A stretch of 64,000 bases of DNA, taken from NCBI RefSeq assembly GCF_030013205.1, contig NZ_CP122648.1; one strand, 5' to 3'. This stretch comes from Escherichia coli. GTDB lineage: Bacteria > Pseudomonadota > Gammaproteobacteria > Enterobacterales > Enterobacteriaceae. A model generated the notes under the pieces. The model did no database searches, was not told the origin of the DNA, and was given only the letters and a program-made list of their open reading frames with translations. Positions within the stretch are counted from its first letter, which is position 1. Each line of letters begins with the position of its first letter. The translations under genes and the position numbers were made by a program. Below, piece by piece: positions 47,785 to 58,609 of this stretch.

Positions 47785-50442
47785 ATGAGCACGAAATTTA
47801 AAACCGTTATCACTACTGCCGGAGCCGCGAAGCTGGCAGCCGCCACTGTCCCCGGCGGGAAAAAAGTAACTCTGTCTGCAATGGCCGTGGGTGACGGTAA
47901 TGGCAAATTGCCGGTGCCGGATGCCGGTCAGACGAAACTGGTGCATGAGGTCTGGCGTCACGCTCTGAATAAAGTCAGCGTGGATAACAAGAATAAAAAC
48001 TATATCGTGGCTGAACTGGTTGTACCGCCAGAAGTGGGCGGCTTCTGGATGCGTGAGCTGGGTCTGTATGACGATGCCGGAACACTGATTGCGGTCGCTA
48101 ACATGGCGGAAAGCTATAAACCTGAACTCGCTGAAGGCTCCGGGCGCGCGCAGACCTGCCGCATGGTTATTATTGTCAGCAACGTGGCGTCCGTTGAGCT
48201 GAGTATTGATGCCAGCACAGTGATGGCGACGCAGGATTACGTCGATGACAAAATCGCAGAGCATGAGCAGTCCCGCCGCCATCCTGACGCCACGCTGACA
48301 GAAAAAGGTTTTACTCAGTTAAGTAGCGCAACAAACAGCACCAGTGAAGAGCTGGCGGCAACGCCAAAGGCAGTAAAAGCAGCCTATGACAATGCTGAAA
48401 AACGTATGCAGAAAGACCAGAACGGTGACGATATTCCAGATAAGGGCGCTTTTCTGGACAACGTTGGCGTTACCAGCCTGACGTTTATGAAAAACAATGG
48501 CGAAATGCCGCTTGATGCTGACTTGAATACATTTGGTCCCGTTAAGGCTTATCTTGGCATCTGGTCTAAAGCAACATCCACCAACGCAACACTGGAGAAA
48601 AATTTCCCGGAAGATAATGCTGTCGGTGTGCTTGAGGTTTTTGCAGCTGGCAATTTTGCAGGCACGCAACGTTTTATCACGAGAGACGGCAATGTATACA
48701 TGCGTAAACTCGCCAATAAGTGGAATGGCACTGATGGTCCGTGGGGCGTATGGCGTCACACTCAATCAGCTACCCGCCCTTTGAGTACGACTATAGACCT
48801 GAATACGCTTGGAGCCGCTGAGCATCTTGGTTTATGGCGTAACAGTAGCTCGGCTATAGCTTCATATGAACGCAATTATCCAGAGGAAGGCGGCTTTGCT
48901 CAGGGGACGCTTGAGATCCTCGAAGGCGGGAATTATGGAAGAACGCAACGTTATACCACTCGTCGTGGGAATATGTACGTTCGCTGCCTTGCGGCAAGCT
49001 GGGATGCATCAAATCCGCAGTGGGAACCGTGGTTAAGAGTCGGTCATCAGTCAGAGAGCCGTTATTACGAAGGTGATTTGAATGTTCTAACCGACCCCGG
49101 TATTTACAGTGTTACAGGAAAGGCGACAAACGGTCCGATGCTGGACGCTGCTGGGGCGACATTGCTTGGGATACTGGAAGTAATCAGGCGTTTTGATGGT
49201 GTATCTGTCTGGCAGCGTTACACAACCACAGGGAAATCAGAAACCACACAGGGGCGCACTTTTGAGCGCGTCTACGCCGGGAGCACATGGACCGAATGGC
49301 GAGAAGTGTATAACTCCTTTTCGTTGCCCCTGAATATGGGGATCGGTGGCGCAGTGGCAAAACTCACCAGCCTGGACTGGCAGACCTACGATTTTGTGCC
49401 GGGCAGTCTGATAACCGTTCGGCTTGATAACATGACCAATATTCCCGACGGTATGGACTGGGGCGTCATTGATGGCAACCTGATAAACATCGCTGTTGGT
49501 CCGAGTGATGATTCCGGTACGGGGCGCTCAATGCATGTATGGCGCAGCACTGTAAGTAAAGCGAATTACCGCTTTTTTATGGTTCGCATTTCAGGAAATC
49601 CGGGAAGCCGCACGATTACGACAAGACGTGTGCCAATTATCGACGAAGCTCAGACATGGGCGGCGAAACAGACATTCAGCGGTGGTCTTTCTGGCGAACT
49701 ATCCGGCAATGCTGCTACAGCAACAAAGCTGAAAACGGCAAGGACAATTAACGGCGTAAAATTTGACGGCTCGGCAAATATTGAAGCGTTTCCGCCAGGT
49801 GTTCCGCTGCCGTGGCCATCAGATACTGTGCCGTCTGGTTACGCCCTGATGCAGGGACAGACTTTTGATAAATCTGCATACCCGAAACTTGCAGTCGCTT
49901 ATCCGTCAGGCGTGATCCCGGATATGCGTGGCTGGACAATCAAGGGCAAACCCGCCAGTGGTCGGGCCGTATTGTCTCTGGAACAGGACGGCATTAAATC
50001 GCACACCCACAGTGCCAGCGCATCCAGTACGGATTTGGGTACGAAAACCACATCGTCGTTTGATTACGGTACTAAATCAACGAATAACACAGGTGCACAT
50101 ACCCACAATGTATCTGGTACTGCAAATAGTGCTGGCGCACATACTCATACCGTTCCATTAAGGAGACCAAACAGTGGCGGTATGAATTTCGACTGGCTGG
50201 ATGGTGCATCAAGTGGCACGGTGGTGGGGAATGGAACTGTGCCTTCTTCTGGCGCACATACCCACTCAGTATCAGGTACCGCTACAAGTGCTGGGGCACA
50301 TGCACACACTGTTGGTATTGGCGCTCATACGCACTCTGTTGCGATTGGTTCACATGGACACACCATCACCGTTAACGCTGCTGGTAACGCGGAAAACACC
50401 GTTAAAAACATCGCATTTAATTATATTGTGAGGCTTGCATAA
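47785..50442 (+). CDS. Tail fiber protein (P2 gpH-like), 885 aa
   Basis: Conserved N-terminal fiber domain ([20 protein letters not shown]...), internal repeats, C-terminal HxH repeats (GAHTHxVSGTAxSAGAH) ending [11 protein letters not shown]. Confidence 0.9.
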
Positions 50443-51059
50443 TGGCATTCAGAATGAGTGAACAATCACGTACTGTAAAAATTTATAACCTGCTGGCCGG
50501 AACTAATGAGTTTATTGGTGAAGGTGACGCATATATTCCACCTCATACAGGGCTGCCAGCCAATTCTACAGATATCGCCCCACCGGAAATTCCTGCTGGC
50601 TTTGTGGCAGTTTTTAACAGTGAAAATGAATCGTGGAATATTGTTGAAGACCATCGTGGTAAAACGGTCTATGACGTGGCATCGGGGGACGCGTTGTTTA
50701 TTTCTGAACCCGGACCGCTACCAGAGAATGTCACCTGGTTGTCGCCAGCAGGGGAGTATCAGAAGTGGGACGGCGTATCCTGGGTGAAGGATGAGGAAGC
50801 AGAAAAACTGTTTCGGATACGGGAAGCGGAAGAGAAAAAGGCAAGGTTGATCCAGGAAGCAACAGATAACATCGCAATTCTGCAGGATGCAGTTAATCTT
50901 GAAATAGCAACAAACGAGGAAAATTCACAACTGGATTCCTGGAGAAAATACAGAGTATTAGTGAGTAGAATTGACACCAGTACAGCTCCGGATATCGTAT
51001 GGCCAGAGCTGATGAATCAGGGTTATGTGCGGGAGGACGAGCAGATAACTTCAGACTGA
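50442..51059 (+). CDS. Tail fiber assembly chaperone (P2 gpG/Tfa-like), 205 aa
   Basis: TAATG-coupled to the fiber gene; Tfa-like sequence. Confidence 0.8.
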
Positions 51060-51586
51060 AATTTAGTGATGAATGTTGAATCATCTGGAATATCATGCAA
51101 TACCAATGCATGAGCACCTATTGTGACATTGTTTCCTATACGCACTTTGCCACCAAGAATGGTGGCATTACAACCAATGGTCACATTATGTCCTATAACA
51201 ATATCCATATCATTAAAATCACCACGCAGCCCAATAGTTACCCCTGGTTTTATTGAACAATTTTCACCGATTGTTACTTTGTGACCGATAACAACACTGT
51301 TGAGATAAGAAATATCAAAGCCTTTCCCTATATTTACAGTTAAAGGGACTGTTACATTATATTTATCAAGAATGAAACGTTCTATTTTCCCCGCAATCTT
51401 CCGACAGCATCCGCCTTTATCAAAAAGGTATTTGGCTATGCGCCACCAAAATAAATAACGAACTCTTCTATGTTTTATTGCGCGAACAATTGCCTTTCGC
51501 CAGGAGAAAGGACGCTCGCTACCGATTACTTCATAGTGAATACAATCTTTAAGTTCATTAATATTCATATCTCTATTATTCAGCAT
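51023..51586 (-). CDS. Hexapeptide-repeat O-acetyltransferase (WcaB/CysE-like), 187 aa
   Basis: Left-handed beta-helix repeats ([45 protein letters not shown]); AT-rich; 37-bp convergent overlap with the fiber assembly gene. Confidence 0.75.
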
Positions 51587-51756
51587 AAGATAATCATGTG
51601 ACCAATTATTGTAATAATTTTAATGGTATGTTTCTACTGGCTATCCAGCGTGTCTGATGTCCAGTAACAAATCGTTAACACTGGTGCAATCAAATGGTGA
51701 GTGTTAAGACTGGCCACTTATTACCAGGTATGAGGGTATGAGTGGCCAGCATTAAA

Positions 51757-52251
51757 TCAGAACAGCCCTTTAACTGAACTGGCCGCGCTGTTAAGGGATG
51801 ATGTCACTTTATCTTTGAAGCCGGACAGCATATCGCTGAACGATGAGGATTGCAGGCGCTCCCGCAAATCCTCATCACAGCGTTCAAGGGTCAGTGAAAA
51901 TTCTATCTTTTTCGCCTTACCGTAGCGATCAAACTCGGAACGGGTCGTATTCGTTTCGGTCAGGACATACATGCCGTAAATCTGCCCGACGCCATCAATA
52001 AGAGGCCAGGGGCGTCCTGTATACGCCTGCGTGGTCAGCAGCGACAGCGACACTTCGCCACCTGTAATTTCAGGATAAAGCACACCAGAAAGAACGATGC
52101 GATCATCACCTGCACCGATATACTGCCAGCTTGCTGAACGGTTAACGCGTTCATTTTTCACATGCCGCCAGCTTTTGTTTTGCTGTAACTGCTGATGCGG
52201 CAGCGTGCGCAGCTCAAAAACAAACATGCCGTAGATCATCATCATGGCCAT
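51757..52251 (-). CDS. Tail protein U (P2 gpU-like)
   Basis: MMMIYGMFVFELRTLPHQQLQQNKSWRH...VLSGVLYPEITGG...PLIDGVGQIYGMYV matches recalled P2 gpU. Confidence 0.88.
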   Translation of the reverse strand: MAMMMIYGMFVFELRTLPHQQLQQNKSWRHVKNERVNRSASWQYIGAGDDRIVLSGVLYPEITGGEVSLSLLTTQAYTGRPWPLIDGVGQIYGMYVLTETNTTRSEFDRYGKAKKIEFSLTLERCDEDLRERLQSSSFSDMLSGFKDKVTSSLNSAASSVKGLF

Positions 52252-52257
52252 GACTCC

Positions 52258-55074
52258 TCAATCTTTATCGTAAAAACTGCCACGCCCGGCACGGGCGCGC
52301 CGTTCCATTTCTGCCCTGACCATTTCACCGACCAGTTTCGCCAGTTCGCGGGGATTCTGCGTAACAACGTTATGCAGATGAACATGAATTTCACCACCAA
52401 ATCCGGAGGCAACAGGCTCCCGGTTACGGGAAGTTACAGGAACTGATGCCACTGGAGATCGTATGGCCTCCGCCACCGGGCGGGAGCTGGCCGCAACAAC
52501 AGGGACCAGCGCCGGAGGCAGCGGAGCCGGGACCACGGGTGTGATATTAATTGCGGGGGCAGGCTTACTGACCTGCGCAATCTTCCGCTCCTGCCACTCT
52601 CCACGAACAGCAAGTGCGCGGGGCAGGTTCTTAAAGACAATATCGCCGGGGCCAATGCGTTTTTTCGTCTCATCAACCAGCTTACCTGTGTTATCAGCAA
52701 TTTTGCTGAGTCTGCGTAGCGTCCCGGTATTGCTGTCTGTGAGCGGTTTGTTGTCTTTGGGTTTATTACCTCCGGTGCCATTGCCATTTTCCACAGGCTT
52801 CGGCGGATTGATTTTCGCCAGGTCACCCTGAAGCAAGGCAACCTTGTCCTGAAGAATGGCCGCACGCTGTGCGTCTTCGATTTTCTTGCGCGCCCTTTCC
52901 GCTTCATCCGGAAGGACGCCAAGTTTTTCAAGTATCCACGCCAGCGTATCCAGTAGCATTTTTGCAGGTGTCAGAACAAGCTGTAACGCACCGCCAAGAA
53001 CGTTACCGAATATCTCGCCAGCACTGGTACATTTATCCAGCGTTTCCTTGCTGGACTCCATCGGTGACAGCAGCGATTTAAACCAGTTAAACACCTGGCT
53101 GATCCCGCTTCCGATTGTGTCAAAAACAGGACCAAACCGTTCAAAGGTTTCGCGCAACGGGGTCAGCCTTTCCATAATCCCGCTGAACACCCCGGCAAAA
53201 AATGCCCTGATGGGATCCCAGTATTTCCAGATAAGAACGGCAGCTCCGGCAAGCGCAGCCACGATAAGACCAACCGGACTGAACAACGCCCCGATGGCGC
53301 CTCCCAGTAAAGAAACGGAACCCGTCACCATTCCCCACAGCGCAGGCAACACCCTGACGACATTCATTGACCGGGTAAGAATGTCAAAACCAAGACGCAG
53401 GGTGGCCAGCTTCCCGTAAAGCACCCCAATAACCAGCGACAACGAGCCAATCGTTGCAGTCATTGCCAGCAACGCACCGCCTGCTATCAGTAGCTGGCGC
53501 GTCAGTACCGGATGGGCCTGCGCCAGCGAGGTGATTTTTTCAAGCACCCGCGTGAGCCACTGCGTGACAGAACGCAGCGGACCGTCAACCAGATCACTGA
53601 TGCGAATACGAAGACCTTCCCATGCGCTGTCGAGATTTTTCAGGTCCCCATCAAGATTATCGGCCATTACTTTTGCGACGCGATCGGCCTCTCCCCTTGC
53701 CCCCTGCAATTCTCTGGTCAGTTTTTGCAGCTCTCCTGAACCAGCCGCCGCAACAAGCGTCTGCAAACCAACGAACGCCTCTTCTCCGGCGATGTCCTTG
53801 AAGAAGGAAACCTGGTCCACCTGTCCGTATTTTTGTGTCGCCTTATAGAGATCAAGCAGCACATCCTCCATCGGGCGCATTTTGCCTCTGGCGTCAGCAA
53901 CTGACACCCCCAGCTCTTTCAGTGCATCAGCCGCAGCTTTTGGCGGTGATGCAAGGCGGGACAGACTTGCGCGCATGGCCGTACCAGCATCGCTTCCGCG
54001 AAGACCATTATTGGCAAGCATCCCGGCCATGGCCGCCGCTTCTTCAAGACTGATACCAAGTTTTGCGGCAACCGGACCGGTATACTTCATGGTTTCGCCC
54101 AGCGCGCGTAAATCAGTATTGGTCCGGGTGAATGCTGCTGTCAGCGTATCGCCAACACGGTCCATTTGATCGGCTGTCAGGTTGAACTGTGTGAGGATAT
54201 TGGAGCCTATATCAGCCGTCTCGCCGAGTTCGACGCCACCTGCCAGCGCCATATTAAGAACACCGGGCAATGCGGCCTGAATGGCCTGCGGAGTAAAACC
54301 AGCCATTGCCAGAAAGCTCTGCCCACTGGCGGCATCACTCGCAGTAAACTGTGTTTCAGAGCCAAGTTTTAACGCCTGCTCACGCAGCGCCTTAAACTGC
54401 GGGCTGTTTTTGTCGATTCGCGTCAGTGCCTGAACGCGGGACATCTCTTTGCCGAACCCGATCGCAGGCTGCAAAAAACGCCCGGCAGCATAGCCGCCCG
54501 CCGTTGCCGCACCAATTGCCAGCGCACCACCTGTTTTCAGTTTTCCCGCTGTTTCCTGCGCGCGCGAATACCGCTCACGCGCCCGTGTTACACGCGCAAG
54601 CGCCTGCCGTTCGCGTTCAAGCTGGTTGTTGTACTGTTCGGTGCGTCTGATGGCCTGCTGGATGGTGTTATCGCTGCCTGTCAGGGAAATGCCGTGGCGT
54701 TTCAGCTCTCCGCCAAGCTCCCGCATTTTCTGAATTTCCCGTGTGCGCGATTCATTCAGGCGTTCAAGCCGGGTGCTTAACTGCTGCATCAGCTTTTGTT
54801 GTTTTTCGCTGAGCACTGTACCCGTGCGTTGTAACTGATTAAGGGCGTTAAGCTGGCGTCGTGCTTTCAATATGCCAGCATCCGCTTTACTGACAGCGTC
54901 ACGGGCGCGCTCAAATGAACGCGCCTGACGCTCGAGATTTTTGATCGCCCCCTGCGTTCGCTGGATGGAGTCACCAAACTGCCCCATCAGGCGGCGGGCG
55001 TTTTCGGCAGGCCGGGTCAGCCTGTCAACGGCGCTGAAAGCGACCCGGATGTCAAGAGTCTTCATTGTCTGCAT
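52258..55074 (-). CDS. Tail tape measure protein (P2 gpT-like)
   Basis: Long coiled-coil/TM-rich protein between E' and U; start uncertain (ORF extends to 55101). Confidence 0.85.
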   Translation of the reverse strand: MQTMKTLDIRVAFSAVDRLTRPAENARRLMGQFGDSIQRTQGAIKNLERQARSFERARDAVSKADAGILKARRQLNALNQLQRTGTVLSEKQQKLMQQLSTRLERLNESRTREIQKMRELGGELKRHGISLTGSDNTIQQAIRRTEQYNNQLERERQALARVTRARERYSRAQETAGKLKTGGALAIGAATAGGYAAGRFLQPAIGFGKEMSRVQALTRIDKNSPQFKALREQALKLGSETQFTASDAASGQSFLAMAGFTPQAIQAALPGVLNMALAGGVELGETADIGSNILTQFNLTADQMDRVGDTLTAAFTRTNTDLRALGETMKYTGPVAAKLGISLEEAAAMAGMLANNGLRGSDAGTAMRASLSRLASPPKAAADALKELGVSVADARGKMRPMEDVLLDLYKATQKYGQVDQVSFFKDIAGEEAFVGLQTLVAAAGSGELQKLTRELQGARGEADRVAKVMADNLDGDLKNLDSAWEGLRIRISDLVDGPLRSVTQWLTRVLEKITSLAQAHPVLTRQLLIAGGALLAMTATIGSLSLVIGVLYGKLATLRLGFDILTRSMNVVRVLPALWGMVTGSVSLLGGAIGALFSPVGLIVAALAGAAVLIWKYWDPIRAFFAGVFSGIMERLTPLRETFERFGPVFDTIGSGISQVFNWFKSLLSPMESSKETLDKCTSAGEIFGNVLGGALQLVLTPAKMLLDTLAWILEKLGVLPDEAERARKKIEDAQRAAILQDKVALLQGDLAKINPPKPVENGNGTGGNKPKDNKPLTDSNTGTLRRLSKIADNTGKLVDETKKRIGPGDIVFKNLPRALAVRGEWQERKIAQVSKPAPAINITPVVPAPLPPALVPVVAASSRPVAEAIRSPVASVPVTSRNREPVASGFGGEIHVHLHNVVTQNPRELAKLVGEMVRAEMERRARAGRGSFYDKD

Positions 55075-55288
55075 TCCCGCTGCGAAGTGCCGCCCGCTCA
55101 CGCCAGCTAACCACTTCGCCGGGCGTCATCATGAAGATTTCGGCGGGCGACCAGTTAAAAATGGCGGCGATATCTGCCACCAGATCTTCGATGTGCTCAA
55201 AGCACACCAGGGTGATTACGCTGCCGTCTCCTGCACGCTCTTCGCGCCAGAGTCTGGCTCGCTCATAAAATTTACAGCCACAGCGCAC
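55052..55288 (-). CDS. E' frameshift extension of tail assembly chaperone (P2 E+E'-like)
   Basis: Overlapping -1 frame ORF continuing past the E stop; joined via a slippery heptamer. Confidence 0.6.
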   Translation of the reverse strand: MRCGCKFYERARLWREERAGDGSVITLVCFEHIEDLVADIAAIFNWSPAEIFMMTPGEVVSWRERAALRSGNADNEDS

Positions 55289-55590
55289 AACTGAATAAAA
55301 TCGCGTGACGACATTTTTTTAATCATCACTTCATCCAGTCGTGGCGAGGTCACGCGAGGCAACAGCGTGAACATGGTATCCGCTTTCAGATTCAGCACAT
55401 CAGACAGCGACAGACCACGCAGGGATCCAGCCTGTTCAATAGCCCCGGTGATCTCCACATACGTGATTTTTTCGCCACCACGCTCAATTGGTCGGGTCAG
55501 TTTTACGCCACGTTCGACAGCCATATCCTCACCTGCCGTCACATCATCCGCCACGGTGTTATTCCGGGTTTCAGTATCGATGTCTTTCAT
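55216..55590 (-). CDS. Tail assembly chaperone E (P2 gpE-like)
   Basis: Small acidic ORF between the tail tube and tape measure genes; start uncertain. Confidence 0.75.
   Translation of the reverse strand: MKDIDTETRNNTVADDVTAGEDMAVERGVKLTRPIERGGEKITYVEITGAIEQAGSLRGLSLSDVLNLKADTMFTLLPRVTSPRLDEVMIKKMSSRDFIQLCAVAVNFMSEPDSGAKSVQETAA
55267..55273 (-). promoter_or_regulatory. Candidate -1 programmed frameshift slippery site A_AAT_TTT (E to E')
   Basis: Heptamer of the form X_XXY_YYZ in the E frame, located where the E' frame opens. Confidence 0.45.
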
Positions 55591-55645
55591 CAGTTGTCTC
55601 CTTTTCAGTCAGAGGCGACGCACTGCGCCGCCTGCATATTACTTA

Positions 55646-56158
55646 TCAGCCAAGCCCGAGCGCGGAACGGATGCGATCGGGCACAATGTCCTTGCCGTCC
55701 TTCCGGTAAATGAAGTTCAGCAGGTCAATCTCCCACAACGGGCGATCGTTAACACTCAGCTTGTAGTAGGTGTTTTTAATGGCGTAAGTGTGTGATGTGG
55801 CTTCGCCCTGTTTGGCTTCCCCCATATCAATTTCCGTCACACGTCCGCGCATTTCGACTTCATACAGGTCGCTTTCTGCATCGGTGTAGTATTCACCCGC
55901 AAAACGCAGCAGCGTGCCGTCAATCGTGCCGCCATACTTAAGGAACAGCTCACGAACTGCGCCCCCCATGACAAAGCTCGCATCAAGCGCGGAGTCGTCC
56001 AGACCGAGATCAATACTTACCGCACCCATCATGCCACCACCCCGGTAGCTGTCGGTTTTGCGCGTCAGCTTAGGCAGAGTGACGGACGTCACCTTACCCA
56101 CTTCGTTTTCACCATCCACAAACAGCGTAAAAAAGCGAAGATGTTTTGGTACAGCCAT
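55646..56158 (-). CDS. Tail tube protein (P2 gpFII-like), 170 aa
   Basis: ...VTLPKLTRK...YRGGGM...DLGLDD... matches recalled P2 FII; TGATG-coupled to the sheath gene. Confidence 0.9.
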   Translation of the reverse strand: MAVPKHLRFFTLFVDGENEVGKVTSVTLPKLTRKTDSYRGGGMMGAVSIDLGLDDSALDASFVMGGAVRELFLKYGGTIDGTLLRFAGEYYTDAESDLYEVEMRGRVTEIDMGEAKQGEATSHTYAIKNTYYKLSVNDRPLWEIDLLNFIYRKDGKDIVPDRIRSALGLG

Positions 56159-57345
56159 CAGGCACCTCCCAGCACCGCAAATGCGGGACCAAAGAATTCA
56201 TCAGTAAACGACTGATAAAGCTCCATGTCTTCCAACGGGGGAACAGGCGTATATTTGTAGCGAATACGCACGCGCCCCTGACGTAAATCCGTGGTGCTGT
56301 TATCCACCACGTCATACCAGCACTCCGCGCCAATCAGTTTCCCGGCAGTCACCAGTGAATCCAGTTTTGCCCTGATGGCACTGATAACATCCTTCACGTT
56401 CGCAGGCGTCAGTGGACTGTCGATGGTTTCAAACTGCGCTTCCGCAATTGAATCAGCCAGCACCTGTGCGGTTCGGGTATACACCTCAAAGATGTAGGCG
56501 TTCGTTTCCGGTGTGCGGTTGCCCCAGAAGCGGAACCCGTTGCGACGAATAATGGTCGTGATTTCTTTGTTGTTGAGGCTGTTGGCATCGCTGTCTTCGG
56601 CCTGCAACGACCAGAACACATGCCTCGACATCCCCAGCACATTTTTAACAGGAACGTTGGACAGTGATTTGTGCCAGCCCTGCTCATGGTCAATGTACGC
56701 ACGAAGGCCGCACGCATAGGCAGGCGCGGGGAACGTTTCGTTTTTGCCACTTTTCGGGTTGTAGGCGATGAAGTCCGGCCATAAGAGCATCACCTCACGT
56801 TCGTTGAATTTCTGGCGGTAGGTAATCGCATCAGCCATCGTGTCACAGCCATGACATGAGGCATACACAAACGCGCGCAGTTTACCCGCAATCACGCACA
56901 GGGATTTTGTCACCGCCTCCGTGTCCAGCTCCGGCGCGGCCAGAATACGCGGACGGTATCCGATGCTTTCATCCTGCTCTGCAACAAGCAGCGCATACAT
57001 CCCCGTATAGCTGCCGTCAGATTCAGAACCACCGATAACCAGTTGATCCTGCGTCTTTCCGTCTTCTTCTTTGTGTTCAGCCACGCGAACGACGATCACC
57101 TTTGTGCTCACCTGGTCTGCGATAGCCTTAAGCGCACGATAAAGCGTCCCCGTTGTCCCGCATTTTCCCAGCACGTCATTGACGCGGGTCAGCAGTGTGG
57201 GCTTGTTCAGCGGGAACAGCTTCGCGTCCGCATCATCCGCCGTTGCCACGATACCGATAACACTGGAATCAACATCATTAATCGCTGTTACCAGGTCGGT
57301 ATTTTCCGTAACACGGGCACCATGAAAACGAGTTTCACTCATAGC
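56158..57345 (-). CDS. Contractile tail sheath protein (P2 gpFI-like), 395 aa
   Basis: Start taken at MSETRFHGARV; size and sequence typical of a myovirus sheath. Confidence 0.9.
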   Translation of the reverse strand, partial: AMSETRFHGARVTENTDLVTAINDVDSSVIGIVATADDADAKLFPLNKPTLLTRVNDVLGKCGTTGTLYRALKAIADQVSTKVIVVRVAEHKEEDGKTQDQLVIGGSESDGSYTGMYALLVAEQDESIGYRPRILAAPELDTEAVTKSLCVIAGKLRAFVYASCHGCDTMADAITYRQKFNEREVMLLWPDFIAYNPKSGKNETFPAPAYACGLRAYIDHEQGWHKSLSNVPVKNVLGMSRHVFWSLQAEDSDANSLNNKEITTIIRRNGFRFWGNRTPETNAYIFEVYTRTAQVLADSIAEAQFETIDSPLTPANVKDVISAIRAKLDSLVTAGKLIGAECWYDVVDNSTTDLRQGRVRIRYKYTPVPPLEDMELYQSFTDEFFGPAFAVLGGA

Positions 57346-57499
57346 TTCAGCCCCTTGTATCCGTAAAATGATTCGGCAACAATCATCACCCACCACGCGC
57401 GTAATCTCACCCCTGCGCCGTTCTCCCGACCCGGCGACAACAAAAAGCAGTAACCCCCTCCGCACGCACATGCGACCATGCCGCACAGGGAGGGAACAG

Positions 57500-58609
57500 A
57501 TGACCGATACCACCATGCAATTGCTCAGTCAGGGCACAGACCCCGTGAAAATGCCGGATTTTGATATTCTCGCGGAGGGTAAAACGCTGTCAGGCGTGGC
57601 AGAGCGCCTGATGAGCCTGTCACTGACCGACAACCGGGGATTTGAGGCGGACCAGCTCACCATCACGCTGGATGATGCGGATGGTCAGTTGCAGCTACCG
57701 CCACGGGGCGCGCGCCTGACGGTTCTCATTGGCTGGAAAGGAGAACCGCTGACAGAAAAAGGCACTTACATTGTTGATGAAATCGCTCACGAAGGACCGC
57801 CGGACAGGCTGACTGTTTCAGCCAGAAGCGCAGATTTTCGGGATGAATTTAACGTTAAACGTGAGGTGTCCTGGCATGATGTGACCGTTGAGCGTGTGGT
57901 ATCCGCCATCGCTCATCGGTACGGCCTGAAACCGCAAATCAGCGAAATGCTGATGGATATCGAAATCGACCACGCCGACCAGACCGAAGAAAGCGACATG
58001 TCCTTTCTTACGCGCATGGCGGAAATGCTGGGCGCAATCACCACGGTAAAAAGCGGTAATCTGTTATTCATTATGCCAGGCGGTGGCGTGAACGCACAGG
58101 GCCAGCCGTTGCCCTCGTTCGCCATTACACGCAGCAGCGGCGATCGCCATCAGTTCCGTATTGCTGACCGCGAGGCGTATACGGGGGTACGCGCCTACTG
58201 GCTTGATCTTAATTACGGGAAAAAGAAAAAAGTCAGCGTGAAACGCCGTAAACCGCCAAAACCCAAAAAGGAGAAAAGCAGCAGCCGTGAAGGTGATTAT
58301 ATGGAAGGCGCGGAAGGCAATGTGTTTGTGTTACGCAAGACTTATCAGAACGAGCAGGCAGCAAGACGCGCAGCGGCGGCAAAGTGGCAGCAGCTACAAC
58401 GCGGAGCCGCATCATTCTCCATCACGCTGGCGCGTGGACGTGCAGAACTCTACCCTGAAATGCATGGCACGGTGACAGGCTTTAAAAGTGACATCGACAA
58501 TCAGGACTGGATTATTGCAAAAGCCGAGCACACCATTGATAACAGCGGCTTTACCACGCAGCTTGAGCTTGAAGCAAAAATCCCAGAATGGATAGCAGAA
58601 ACAGAGTAA
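57500..58609 (+). CDS. Tail protein D (P2 gpD-like), 369 aa
   Basis: Start at MTDTTMQLL with RBS AGGGAGGG; gpD-like sequence; ORF track extends upstream to 57368. Confidence 0.85.
   Translation: MTDTTMQLLSQGTDPVKMPDFDILAEGKTLSGVAERLMSLSLTDNRGFEADQLTITLDDADGQLQLPPRGARLTVLIGWKGEPLTEKGTYIVDEIAHEGPPDRLTVSARSADFRDEFNVKREVSWHDVTVERVVSAIAHRYGLKPQISEMLMDIEIDHADQTEESDMSFLTRMAEMLGAITTVKSGNLLFIMPGGGVNAQGQPLPSFAITRSSGDRHQFRIADREAYTGVRAYWLDLNYGKKKKVSVKRRKPPKPKKEKSSSREGDYMEGAEGNVFVLRKTYQNEQAARRAAAAKWQQLQRGAASFSITLARGRAELYPEMHGTVTGFKSDIDNQDWIIAKAEHTIDNSGFTTQLELEAKIPEWIAETE

What the first reader, a model, noticed from the sequence alone, without database searches (positions are those of the whole stretch)
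55216..55288. Candidate -1 programmed ribosomal frameshift producing an E+E' tail chaperone
An overlapping -1 frame ORF (to 55052) continues past the E stop, and a heptamer A_AAT_TTT of the X_XXY_YYZ form lies at 55267-55273 exactly where that frame opens. This mirrors the conserved chaperone frameshift of P2 E/E' and lambda G/GT.
Basis: partly seen in the sequence, partly recalled or inferred. Interest (0 to 1): 0.35.

Follow-up and report, generated by a model that had tools for sequence, protein, structure and literature searches.

The report
Tail-chaperone frameshift in P88-like prophage
This is the expected -1 ribosomal frameshift that lets a P2-type prophage make a short and a long form of its tail-assembly chaperone; it is a known mechanism, but this lineage slips one codon upstream of the site used by phage P2, and public annotations miss it.

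Summary
On the minus strand, gene E (55590..55216) lies between the tail tube and tape-measure genes. A -1 frame ORF runs past its stop to 55052 and carries the Pfam Phage_P2_GpE domain (E=3e-12). A_AAT_TTT (55273..55267) is in phase with E and is the only canonical X_XXY_YYZ heptamer in the overlap. One detail is wrong: the -1 frame opens at 55318, not at the heptamer.

- The conceptual fusion (179 aa) aligns collinearly with P2 E+E' through the junction (E=1e-28).
- All 166 analysable homologous loci have a canonical heptamer at the same conserved Phe codon.
- Most lineages have no start codon for E', and none has a Shine-Dalgarno sequence.
- A conserved -1 peptide begins right after the slip site.

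The twist is that P2's proven T_TTT_TTG is destroyed here (TTG->ATG). Only the overlapping upstream heptamer remains, and a Klebsiella-phage lineage shows the same pattern (C_CCT_TTC). Reporter data rate A_AAU_UUU more slippery than U_UUU_UUG when stimulated, yet I found no stimulatory RNA structure. Phage phiSM, with the identical junction, is fully infectious.

Verdict: an ordinary mechanism and a new, unannotated member of a known kind. The fusion protein is absent from public protein sets. Low to moderate interest.

The parts
55216..55590 (-). Gene E: tail assembly chaperone, short form, 124 aa, made by standard decoding
   Evidence: ORF. PHROG 103 'tail protein', E=1e-36. Weak PF10109 Phage_TAC_7 hit at 20.6 bits, below the cut-off of 25. 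Aligns with P2 gpE. Lies between the tube and tape-measure genes.
55267..55273 (-). Slippery heptamer A_AAT_TTT (zero frame GT[A AAT TTT] ATG); proposed site of the -1 shift
   Evidence: In phase with E. Only canonical heptamer in the overlap. Sits at the Phe codon conserved in 166 of 166 loci. A_AAU_UUU gave 11.4% frameshifting with the IS3 pseudoknot in E. coli reporters.
55052..55267 (-). E' extension read in the -1 frame after the shift (first codon TAT at 55267-55265; 71 aa; stop TGA at 55054-55052). E+E' = join(55590..55267, 55267..55052), 179 aa, junction ...AVAVNF|YERARLW...
   Evidence: Translation. Conserved -1 peptide F-x4-G-x-W-x2-ER-x-GDG begins at the slip site. Collinear alignment with P2 E+E'.
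55219..55318 (-). Overlap in which the -1 frame is open while E is still being read; the window within which a productive shift must happen
   Evidence: -1 frame stop TAA at 55321-55319 and E stop at 55218-55216. In relatives L042 and the L072 group the -1 frame opens 1 nt before the Phe codon, which pins the site.
55073..55180 (-). Phage_P2_GpE domain (PF06528) within E'
   Evidence: hmmscan E=2.9e-12, 46.3 bits against a cut-off of 23, covering residues 47-82 of the -1 translation that starts at 55318.
55052..55207 (-). Stand-alone 51-aa 'GpE family phage tail protein' ORF as RefSeq annotates it (GTG start); judged an annotation artefact
   Evidence: PGAP annotation of an identical copy. No SD upstream, and the start is not conserved in relatives.
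52258..55065 (-). Tape-measure gene T; its ATG overlaps the E' stop by 14 nt
   Evidence: PF10145, E=1.6e-56. Start taken from PGAP and P88 annotation.
55646..56158 (-). Tail tube gene FII, immediately upstream of E
   Evidence: PF04985, E=7.5e-47.
56158..57342 (-). Tail sheath gene FI, first gene of the cassette
   Evidence: PGAP annotation of the homologous copy. The ORF is listed.
51757..52251 (-). Tail gene U, last gene of the cassette
   Evidence: PF06995, E=5.5e-39.

Best explanation
E and E+E' are the two forms of the tail-assembly chaperone of a P88-like (Xuanwuvirus, Peduoviridae) prophage.

Most ribosomes translate E (124 aa) and stop at 55218-55216. A minority slip back one base on A_AAT_TTT (55273-55267), with tRNA-Asn in the P site and tRNA-Phe in the A site. 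tRNA-Asn re-pairs AAU->AAA and tRNA-Phe re-pairs UUU->UUU. Those ribosomes then read TAT GAG... in the -1 frame to 55052, giving a 179-aa fusion (...AVAVNF-YERARLW...) whose C-terminal part is the GpE domain.

By analogy with lambda G/GT and P2 E/E+E', the shared E part binds the tape-measure protein T, and the E' part recruits the tube protein so that the tail polymerises to the correct length. Neither form ends up in the virion.

Shown here:
- frame geometry;
- homology of both parts to P2;
- conservation of a heptamer at this codon;
- absence of an independent start for E';
- conservation of the -1 peptide from the slip site onward.

Inferred:
- that slippage actually occurs, and its efficiency;
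- that the heptamer (two-tRNA slip) is used rather than the U_UUU tetramer alone;
- the chaperone roles.
For: - Synteny tube-E-E'-T-U and the Pfam hits.
- PF06528 lies in the -1 frame.
- P2's record annotates a -1 shift at GG[T TTT TTG]. The window's Phe codon is homologous to it.
- 166 of 166 analysable loci carry an in-phase canonical heptamer at that Phe codon. In L042 and the L072 group the -1 frame opens 1 nt before it.
- The two lineages that lost T_TTT_TTN (19 window-type and 16 Klebsiella-type loci) all keep X_XXT_TTY one codon upstream.
- Most lineages have no ATG, GTG or TTG in the -1 frame before the E' domain, and no candidate start has an SD.
- Across the Phe codon, frame-0 amino-acid identity goes 0.51->0.44 and frame -1 goes 0.29->0.58, with conserved W, ER and GDG residues upstream of the E stop.
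- Sharma et al. 2014 Table S3: A_AAU_UUU gives 11.4% with a pseudoknot against 0.77% for U_UUU_UUG, and AAAUUUU in this phase is strongly avoided in E. coli genes, z=-9.1. R_RR.U_UU.Y motifs are singled out as shift-prone.
- phiSM has the identical junction (L002) and is a fully functional plaque-forming temperate phage (PMC6456863).
- The variant junction is kept in 597 of 5426 complete E. coli genomes.
Against: - There is no direct evidence here, such as protein or ribosome profiling data, that the fusion is made.
- Without a stimulator A_AAU_UUU gave only 0.07% in reporters, close to background.
- I found no stimulatory structure. Local folds in the window have z of -0.5 to -1.4. The family median z is about 0. 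The consensus fold is -3.6 kcal/mol with no informative covariation near the site. No SD-like element was seen upstream by inspection.
- Only two independent lineages show loss of the P2-type heptamer on a background that already had the upstream one. That pattern is suggestive, not statistically strong.
- The crude synonymous-site measure does not separate frame -1 from frame +1 in the overlap.
Confidence: 0.88

Rival explanations
1. The frameshift happens at the same place but by single-tRNA slippage of tRNA-Phe on the U_UUU tetramer (AA[T TTT]). The upstream AAA is incidental. The protein product would be identical.
For: The T-run and Phe codon are the universally conserved element, while the XXX part varies or is absent where T_TTT_TTN is present. 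The U_UUU tetramer is measurably shift-prone: 0.8% with a pseudoknot against a background of about 0.07% (Table S2).
Against: The heptamer A_AAU_UUU is about 14 times better than the U_UUU tetramer in the same study (11.4% against 0.8%). In both lineages that lost T_TTT_TTN, the full XXX is kept in every locus (35 of 35), including GTA/ATA and GTC, where the third codon base is otherwise free.
Confidence: 0.15
2. E' is a separate small gene translated from its own start (GTG at 55207 as RefSeq annotates, or GTG at 55288), with no frameshift.
For: RefSeq and several GenBank phage records annotate it this way. Two GTG codons exist in the -1 frame in the window.
Against: Neither GTG has a Shine-Dalgarno sequence. 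Most related lineages have no ATG, GTG or TTG at all before the E' domain. Public annotations disagree on the start, giving 78, 51 and 42 aa versions. The conserved -1 peptide lies upstream of 55207. P2 E' is recorded as a -1 extension sharing gpE's amino terminus (PMC3091744).
Confidence: 0.04
3. The shift occurs elsewhere in the 100-nt overlap, for example on the AAAAAAA run at 55320-55314 (zero frame AAA AAA A) where the -1 frame opens.
For: Runs of A are slippery. The -1 frame is open from 55318 in this lineage.
Against: In phase the motif is T_AAA_AAA, which is not canonical. In P88-type relatives the -1 frame is closed there, with overlaps of only 82 nt, 52 nt in L042 and 34 nt in P2. 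The -1 peptide between 55318 and the heptamer is not conserved: identity 0.29, the same as the control frame.
Confidence: 0.03
4. The TTG->ATG change killed the P2-type site, E+E' is no longer made, and the prophage tail module is defective.
For: The experimentally defined P2 heptamer T_TTT_TTG is absent. A_AAU_UUU alone is near background in reporters.
Against: phiSM with the identical junction is fully infectious. The -1 ORF is intact and the junction is maintained in 597 complete E. coli genomes. A competent replacement heptamer is present.
Confidence: 0.03

Closest known systems
Bacteriophage P2 E / E+E' -1 programmed frameshift (Christie et al. 2002; annotated in NC_001895)
   Same: Homologous proteins: 33% identity, one collinear alignment through the junction, E=1e-28. 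Same gene position between FII and T. Same E' domain (PF06528). The shift is at the homologous Phe codon near the C-terminus of E. The E' stop overlaps the T start. No downstream RNA structure.
   Different: P2 slips on T_TTT_TTG (Phe in the P site, Leu in the A site). Here that heptamer is broken (TTT ATG), and the only canonical site is A_AAT_TTT one codon 5' (Asn in the P site, Phe in the A site). E is longer here (124 against 91 aa), and the overlap between slip site and E stop is longer (51 against 24 nt). The FI-U cassette is on the opposite strand from H/G and D.
Phage P88 and other Xuanwuvirus (KP063541; Chuche; 500465-2)
   Same: Same genus-level group, 84-86% DNA identity, with the same gene order and the same A_AAT_TTT.
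   Different: These carry the compound site A_AAT_TTT_TTG with both heptamers. The window lineage (P884B11, phiSM, 520873, 503458) has only the upstream one.
Phage lambda G / GT tail assembly chaperone frameshift (G_GGA_AAG)
   Same: Same logic: two overlapping ORFs between the major tail and tape-measure genes, a low-level -1 shift, and a fixed ratio of short to long chaperone (PMC5009743).
   Different: No detectable sequence homology was tested or claimed. The heptamer differs. Lambda has a non-contractile tail. The P2-group efficiency is reported as 2- to 3-fold higher than lambda's.
Klebsiella phage ST16-OXA48phi5.4 lineage (Reipivirus)
   Same: An independent case of the same event: the P2-type heptamer is lost (TTT->TTC) and only the heptamer one codon upstream is kept (C_CCT_TTC), in 16 of 16 loci.
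   Different: X is C instead of A, and the loss is by a synonymous change in the Phe codon rather than a change in the following codon.

Membership tests
P2-type E/E+E' tail assembly chaperone pair with -1 programmed frameshift | Two overlapping ORFs located between the tail tube (FII) gene and the tape-measure (T) gene | tested here: met
   FII 56158..55646, E 55590..55216, E' to 55052, T from 55065.
P2-type E/E+E' tail assembly chaperone pair with -1 programmed frameshift | The upstream ORF is homologous to gpE (tail assembly chaperone, PF10109 / PHROG 103) | tested here: met
   BLASTP against P2 E+E' covers the E part, E=1e-28. PHROG 103, E=1e-36. The Pfam PF10109 hit is only 20.6 bits, below the cut-off of 25. 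NCBIfam gave no hit.
P2-type E/E+E' tail assembly chaperone pair with -1 programmed frameshift | The downstream ORF is in the -1 frame relative to E and carries the GpE domain (PF06528) | tested here: met
   Frame arithmetic. PF06528 E=2.9e-12, 46.3 bits against a cut-off of 23.
P2-type E/E+E' tail assembly chaperone pair with -1 programmed frameshift | E' lacks its own translation initiation site | tested here: met
   No SD before either GTG in the window. No start codon at all in most related lineages.
P2-type E/E+E' tail assembly chaperone pair with -1 programmed frameshift | An in-phase slippery heptamer in the overlap, conserved in position among homologues | tested here: met
   A_AAT_TTT at 55273-55267. 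A heptamer sits at the homologous Phe codon in 166 of 166 loci.
P2-type E/E+E' tail assembly chaperone pair with -1 programmed frameshift | The specific P2 heptamer T_TTT_TTG | tested here: not met
   The window has T_TTT_ATG at that position. This feature defines the P2 site but not the family: TTA, TTC and C_CCT_TTC variants also occur.
P2-type E/E+E' tail assembly chaperone pair with -1 programmed frameshift | The fusion protein is actually produced, and E' is essential for tail assembly | not testable with these tools
   Indirect evidence only: phiSM with the identical junction is infectious.
Stimulated -1 PRF (heptamer plus downstream hairpin or pseudoknot, or upstream SD, as in dnaX and IS911/IS3) | A stable, conserved RNA structure 5-9 nt downstream of the heptamer | tested here: not met
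   Window z of -0.5 to -1.4. Family median z about 0 across 46 sequences. Consensus fold -3.6 kcal/mol with nothing in the first 35 nt.

The most novel reading that the evidence does not exclude
The programmed slip site has migrated by one codon within a single protein family. P88-like and Novemvirus-like phages carry a compound 10-nt slippery sequence (X_XXT_TTT_TTG) that holds two overlapping heptamers. Two lineages, the window's and a Klebsiella-phage group, independently lost the ancestral P2-type heptamer and now depend on the upstream one.

This upstream heptamer is intrinsically more slippery than P2's when stimulated, yet it is near background unstimulated and has no RNA structure nearby. 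That would imply a still unidentified, non-structural stimulator, such as flanking sequence or the nascent chain, shared by the P2 group.
Probability: 0.45. Interest if true: 0.4.

Novelty: new member of a known kind. Interest (0 to 1): 0.25.

Why it matters
Practical value is mainly in annotation. This locus is in about a quarter of complete E. coli genomes (1373 of 5426), and the exact variant junction is in 597. Even so, RefSeq and phage records either split E' off as a small gene with arbitrary starts (78, 51 or 42 aa) or omit it, and the 179-aa fusion is absent from a 15-billion-protein collection. Correct annotation needs join(55590..55267, 55267..55052) with ribosomal slippage.

Biologically, it gives a natural comparison of three arrangements on one protein scaffold: P2-type only, both heptamers, and upstream only. 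That comparison could be used to ask what sets frameshift efficiency when no RNA structure is present. phiSM is a tractable, infectious phage in E. coli K-12 that carries the upstream-only arrangement.

Tried and rejected
- **Downstream stimulatory structure.** I folded 36-120 nt after the heptamer. Only the 120-nt fold stood out (z -2.8), and it relies on long-range pairs to the conserved NW(S/P)P codons. RNAalifold on 43 distinct homologues gave -3.6 kcal/mol, with pairs only between invariant columns. Z-scores across 46 sequences centre on 0. Rejected as a conserved stimulator.
- **Local hairpin.** The hairpin CUCU.GCGCG...CGUGC.AGGAG in the window is not kept in P88 by inspection of the aligned sequences.
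- **Upstream SD-like stimulator.** None seen by inspection of the 25 nt 5' of the heptamer in the window and relatives.
- **Independent start for E'.** Rejected.
- **AAAAAAA run as the slip site.** Rejected: the phase is wrong, the -1 frame is closed there in relatives, and the peptide is not conserved.
- **Transcriptional slippage.** Rejected from general knowledge: runs of A3 and T4 are too short.
- **Synonymous versus non-synonymous counting in the overlap.** It showed that frame 0 loses its dominance, but it could not separate frame -1 from frame +1. I do not lean on it.
- **Christie et al. 2002 (PMC135442).** Not held. Its content is cited through the P2 record, PMC3091744 and PMC5009743.
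- **NCBIfam.** No hit for E or for the fusion.

Full report
**What is in the sequence**

The finding lies on the minus strand inside a P2-type contractile-tail cassette:

| Gene | Coordinates (minus strand) | Evidence |
|---|---|---|
| Sheath FI | 57342..56158 | PGAP annotation of a homologous copy |
| Tube FII | 56158..55646 | PF04985, E=7.5e-47 |
| E | 55590..55216 | see below |
| Tape measure T | 55065..52258 | PF10145, E=1.6e-56 |
| U | 52251..51757 | PF06995, E=5.5e-39 |

The region is 99% identical to Xuanwuvirus P884B11 and Citrobacter phage phiSM, and about 84% identical to phage P88. It is therefore a P88-like member of the Peduoviridae, not P2 itself.

E is 124 aa, with GGAG 8 nt before its ATG. 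The zero-frame codons near its end are GCT GTA AAT TTT ATG AGC. A_AAT_TTT at 55273-55267 is therefore a genuine X_XXY_YYZ heptamer in the right phase.

The -1 frame is open from 55318, after TAA at 55321-55319, to TGA at 55054-55052. The frame opens 45 nt upstream, and the GTG at 55288 is simply the first start-type codon in it.

A_AAT_TTT is the only in-phase canonical heptamer in the overlap. The base rate in 45 gene-like ORFs of the window is 0.0025 per codon. That predicts about 0.08 per overlap of this size, or 0.017 for efficient heptamers. The motif alone is suggestive rather than decisive.

**Identity of the two parts**

- The -1 ORF carries Pfam PF06528 (Phage_P2_GpE) at E=2.9e-12 and PHROG 1756 at E=8e-38.
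- E matches PHROG 103 at E=1e-36. It hits PF10109 (tail assembly chaperone E/41/14) only weakly, at 20.6 bits against a cut-off of 25.
- The conceptual fusion made by a -1 shift on the heptamer is 179 aa (...AVAVNF|YERARLW...). It aligns with P2 E+E' as one collinear BLASTP segment running straight through the junction (33% identity, E=1e-28).

**Comparison with P2**

The P2 RefSeq record annotates E+E' as a two-piece CDS that 'shares amino terminus with gpE; -1 frameshift', and it marks the shift site. The sequence there is GTC GGT TTT TTG TCG, which gives T_TTT_TTG. This agrees with PMC3091744.

In the protein alignment, P2's ...VVGFL... lines up with the window's ...AVNFM.... The Phe codon and its T-run are homologous, but the window has ATG where P2 has TTG. 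The P2 heptamer is therefore destroyed, and the remaining canonical heptamer starts one codon further 5'.

I analysed 87 loci on the window's side of the family (44-100% identity). I then analysed 79 on the P2 side (69-100% identity to P2 E+E').

- All 166 analysable loci have an in-phase canonical heptamer at the conserved Phe codon.
- 131 have T_TTT_TTN.
- The other 35 form two lineages. The window type is GTA AAT TTT ATG (19 loci). A Klebsiella Reipivirus type is GTC CCT TTC TTG (16 loci).
- All 35 of these carry X_XXT_TTY one codon upstream.
- Their nearest relatives (P88, Chuche, Novemvirus-like phages) carry both heptamers as a compound X_XXT_TTT_TTG. By parsimony the P2-type site is ancestral, and it was lost twice on backgrounds that already had the upstream heptamer.

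With only two independent events, this pattern is suggestive, not statistically strong.

In L042 and the nine-locus L072 group the -1 frame opens one nucleotide before the Phe codon. This pins the family's shift site to that spot.

**Is E' translated on its own?**

RefSeq annotates a 51-aa 'GpE family phage tail protein' from GTG at 55207. Other records use GTG at 55288 (78 aa) or a 42-aa version. Several arguments count against any of these starts:

- Neither GTG has a Shine-Dalgarno sequence.
- Most related lineages contain no ATG, GTG or TTG at all in the -1 frame between its opening and the E' domain.
- The distance from the Phe codon to the E' motif is fixed at 77 nt in nearly all lineages.
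- A conserved -1 peptide (F-x4-G-x-W-x2-E-R-x-G-D-G) starts immediately after the slip site, upstream of the E stop.
- Across the Phe codon, mean pairwise amino-acid identity goes from 0.51 to 0.44 in frame 0 and from 0.29 to 0.58 in frame -1.

The crude synonymous-fraction measure did not separate frame -1 from frame +1, so I do not rely on it.

**Competence of the heptamer**

Sharma et al. 2014 (PMC4066793) measured all 64 heptamers in E. coli. Their Table S3 gives:

| Heptamer | No stimulator | IS911 stimulators | IS3 pseudoknot |
|---|---|---|---|
| A_AAU_UUU (window) | 0.07% | 0.36% | 11.4% |
| U_UUU_UUG (P2 type) | 0.12% | 0.25% | 0.77% |
| C_CCU_UUC (Klebsiella type) | 0.19% | 1.4% | 23% |

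AAAUUUU in this phase is strongly under-represented in E. coli genes (z=-9.1). The authors single out R_RR.U_UU.Y motifs as shift-prone. The window's heptamer is thus at least as competent as P2's when stimulated, but close to background on its own.

**Stimulators**

I found none.

- Folds of 36-90 nt after the heptamer are no more stable than shuffles (z -0.5 to -1.4). A 120-nt fold reaches z -2.8 through long-range pairs.
- The consensus fold of 43 distinct homologues is -3.6 kcal/mol. It has nothing in the first 35 nt, and its pairs join only invariant columns.
- Across 46 distinct sequences the median z is about 0 at 40, 60 and 90 nt.

This matches the reported absence of structures in P2 and Burkholderia P2-like phages. 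P2-group frameshifting is nevertheless reported as 2- to 3-fold more efficient than lambda G/GT (PMC5009743). What raises efficiency in the native context is unexplained, both here and in P2.

**Functional support**

phiSM has exactly the same junction (L002). It was shown to be a fully functional, plaque-forming, lysogenising phage on E. coli K-12 (PMC6456863).

The locus occurs in 1373 of 5426 complete E. coli genomes. The window-type junction occurs in 597 of them, and 525 records match exactly over 55 nt. The variant is therefore maintained and compatible with infectious particles. This argues against the idea that losing T_TTT_TTG disabled the module.

**Mechanism proposed**

1. Standard decoding yields E.
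2. A minority of ribosomes shift -1 on A_AAU_UUU, with tRNA-Asn re-pairing AAU->AAA in the P site and tRNA-Phe re-pairing UUU->UUU in the A site.
3. These ribosomes continue to 55052 and yield E+E'.

By analogy with lambda G/GT and P2, the shared E part binds the tape measure T, and the E' part recruits the tube protein.

The frame geometry, homology, site conservation and lack of a separate start are shown here. The occurrence and rate of slippage, the two-tRNA mechanism as against a tetramer mechanism, and the chaperone roles are inferred.

**Novelty and verdict**

The kind of element is well known and expected in any P2-like phage. Two things are new:

- In this widespread lineage it is unannotated. 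The fusion is absent from a 15-billion-protein collection.
- The slip site sits one codon upstream of the experimentally defined P2 site.

I classify it as a new member of a known kind, of low to moderate interest. The main loose end is how a stimulator-free site reaches useful efficiency.

Noticed in passing
window 55052-55065 (minus strand); P2 locus L007 2851-2858: The E' stop codon overlaps the tape-measure start by 14 nt (ATGAAGACTCTTGA). P2 has the same kind of overlap (ATGAGTAA). Only ribosomes that have frameshifted translate right up to the T start, so T synthesis could be translationally coupled to E+E'. This is speculation.
   Followed up: no
window about 55226-55236 (minus strand), alignment A2 columns 45-55: A nearly invariant nucleotide block GGCGGAGACGG lies 35-45 nt 3' of the heptamer in 43 distinct homologues, but is absent in P2. 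Dual coding (E: ..ET..; E': ..GDG..) probably explains it. The only pairing found for it was to the equally invariant CCGCCC of the NWPP codons, with no covariation.
   Followed up: partly
window 55314-55321 (minus strand): A run of seven A residues (zero frame AAA AAA A) lies exactly where the -1 frame opens (TAA at 55321-55319). In phase it is a non-canonical T_AAA_AAA.
   Followed up: yes
window 47785-58609: The FI-FII-E-E'-T-U cassette (minus strand) is on the opposite strand from tail fibre genes H and G (47785-51059, +) and the gpD-like gene (57368-58609, +). In P2, FI through D form one co-linear operon. A hexapeptide-repeat acetyltransferase (51023-51586, minus) sits between U and G as a likely moron.
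   Followed up: no
locus L002 (Citrobacter phage Shae_phiSM) and PMC6456863: phiSM was described by electron microscopy as a siphovirus with long non-contractile tails. Its genome, like this window, encodes a P2-type sheath (FI) and tube (FII). The published morphology and the gene content disagree.
   Followed up: no
locus L024 1492-1632: This viral contig carries the window-type ATG variant (GTA AAT TTT ATG) on a downstream sequence that is otherwise P88-like. It is either a recombinant with a breakpoint next to the slip site or an independent T->A change.
   Followed up: no
window 55052-55288; clusters: Public annotations call E' as a free-standing protein with at least three different starts (78, 51 and 42 aa), and some records label it 'tail fiber protein'. 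This is a systematic mis-annotation affecting hundreds of genomes.
   Followed up: yes
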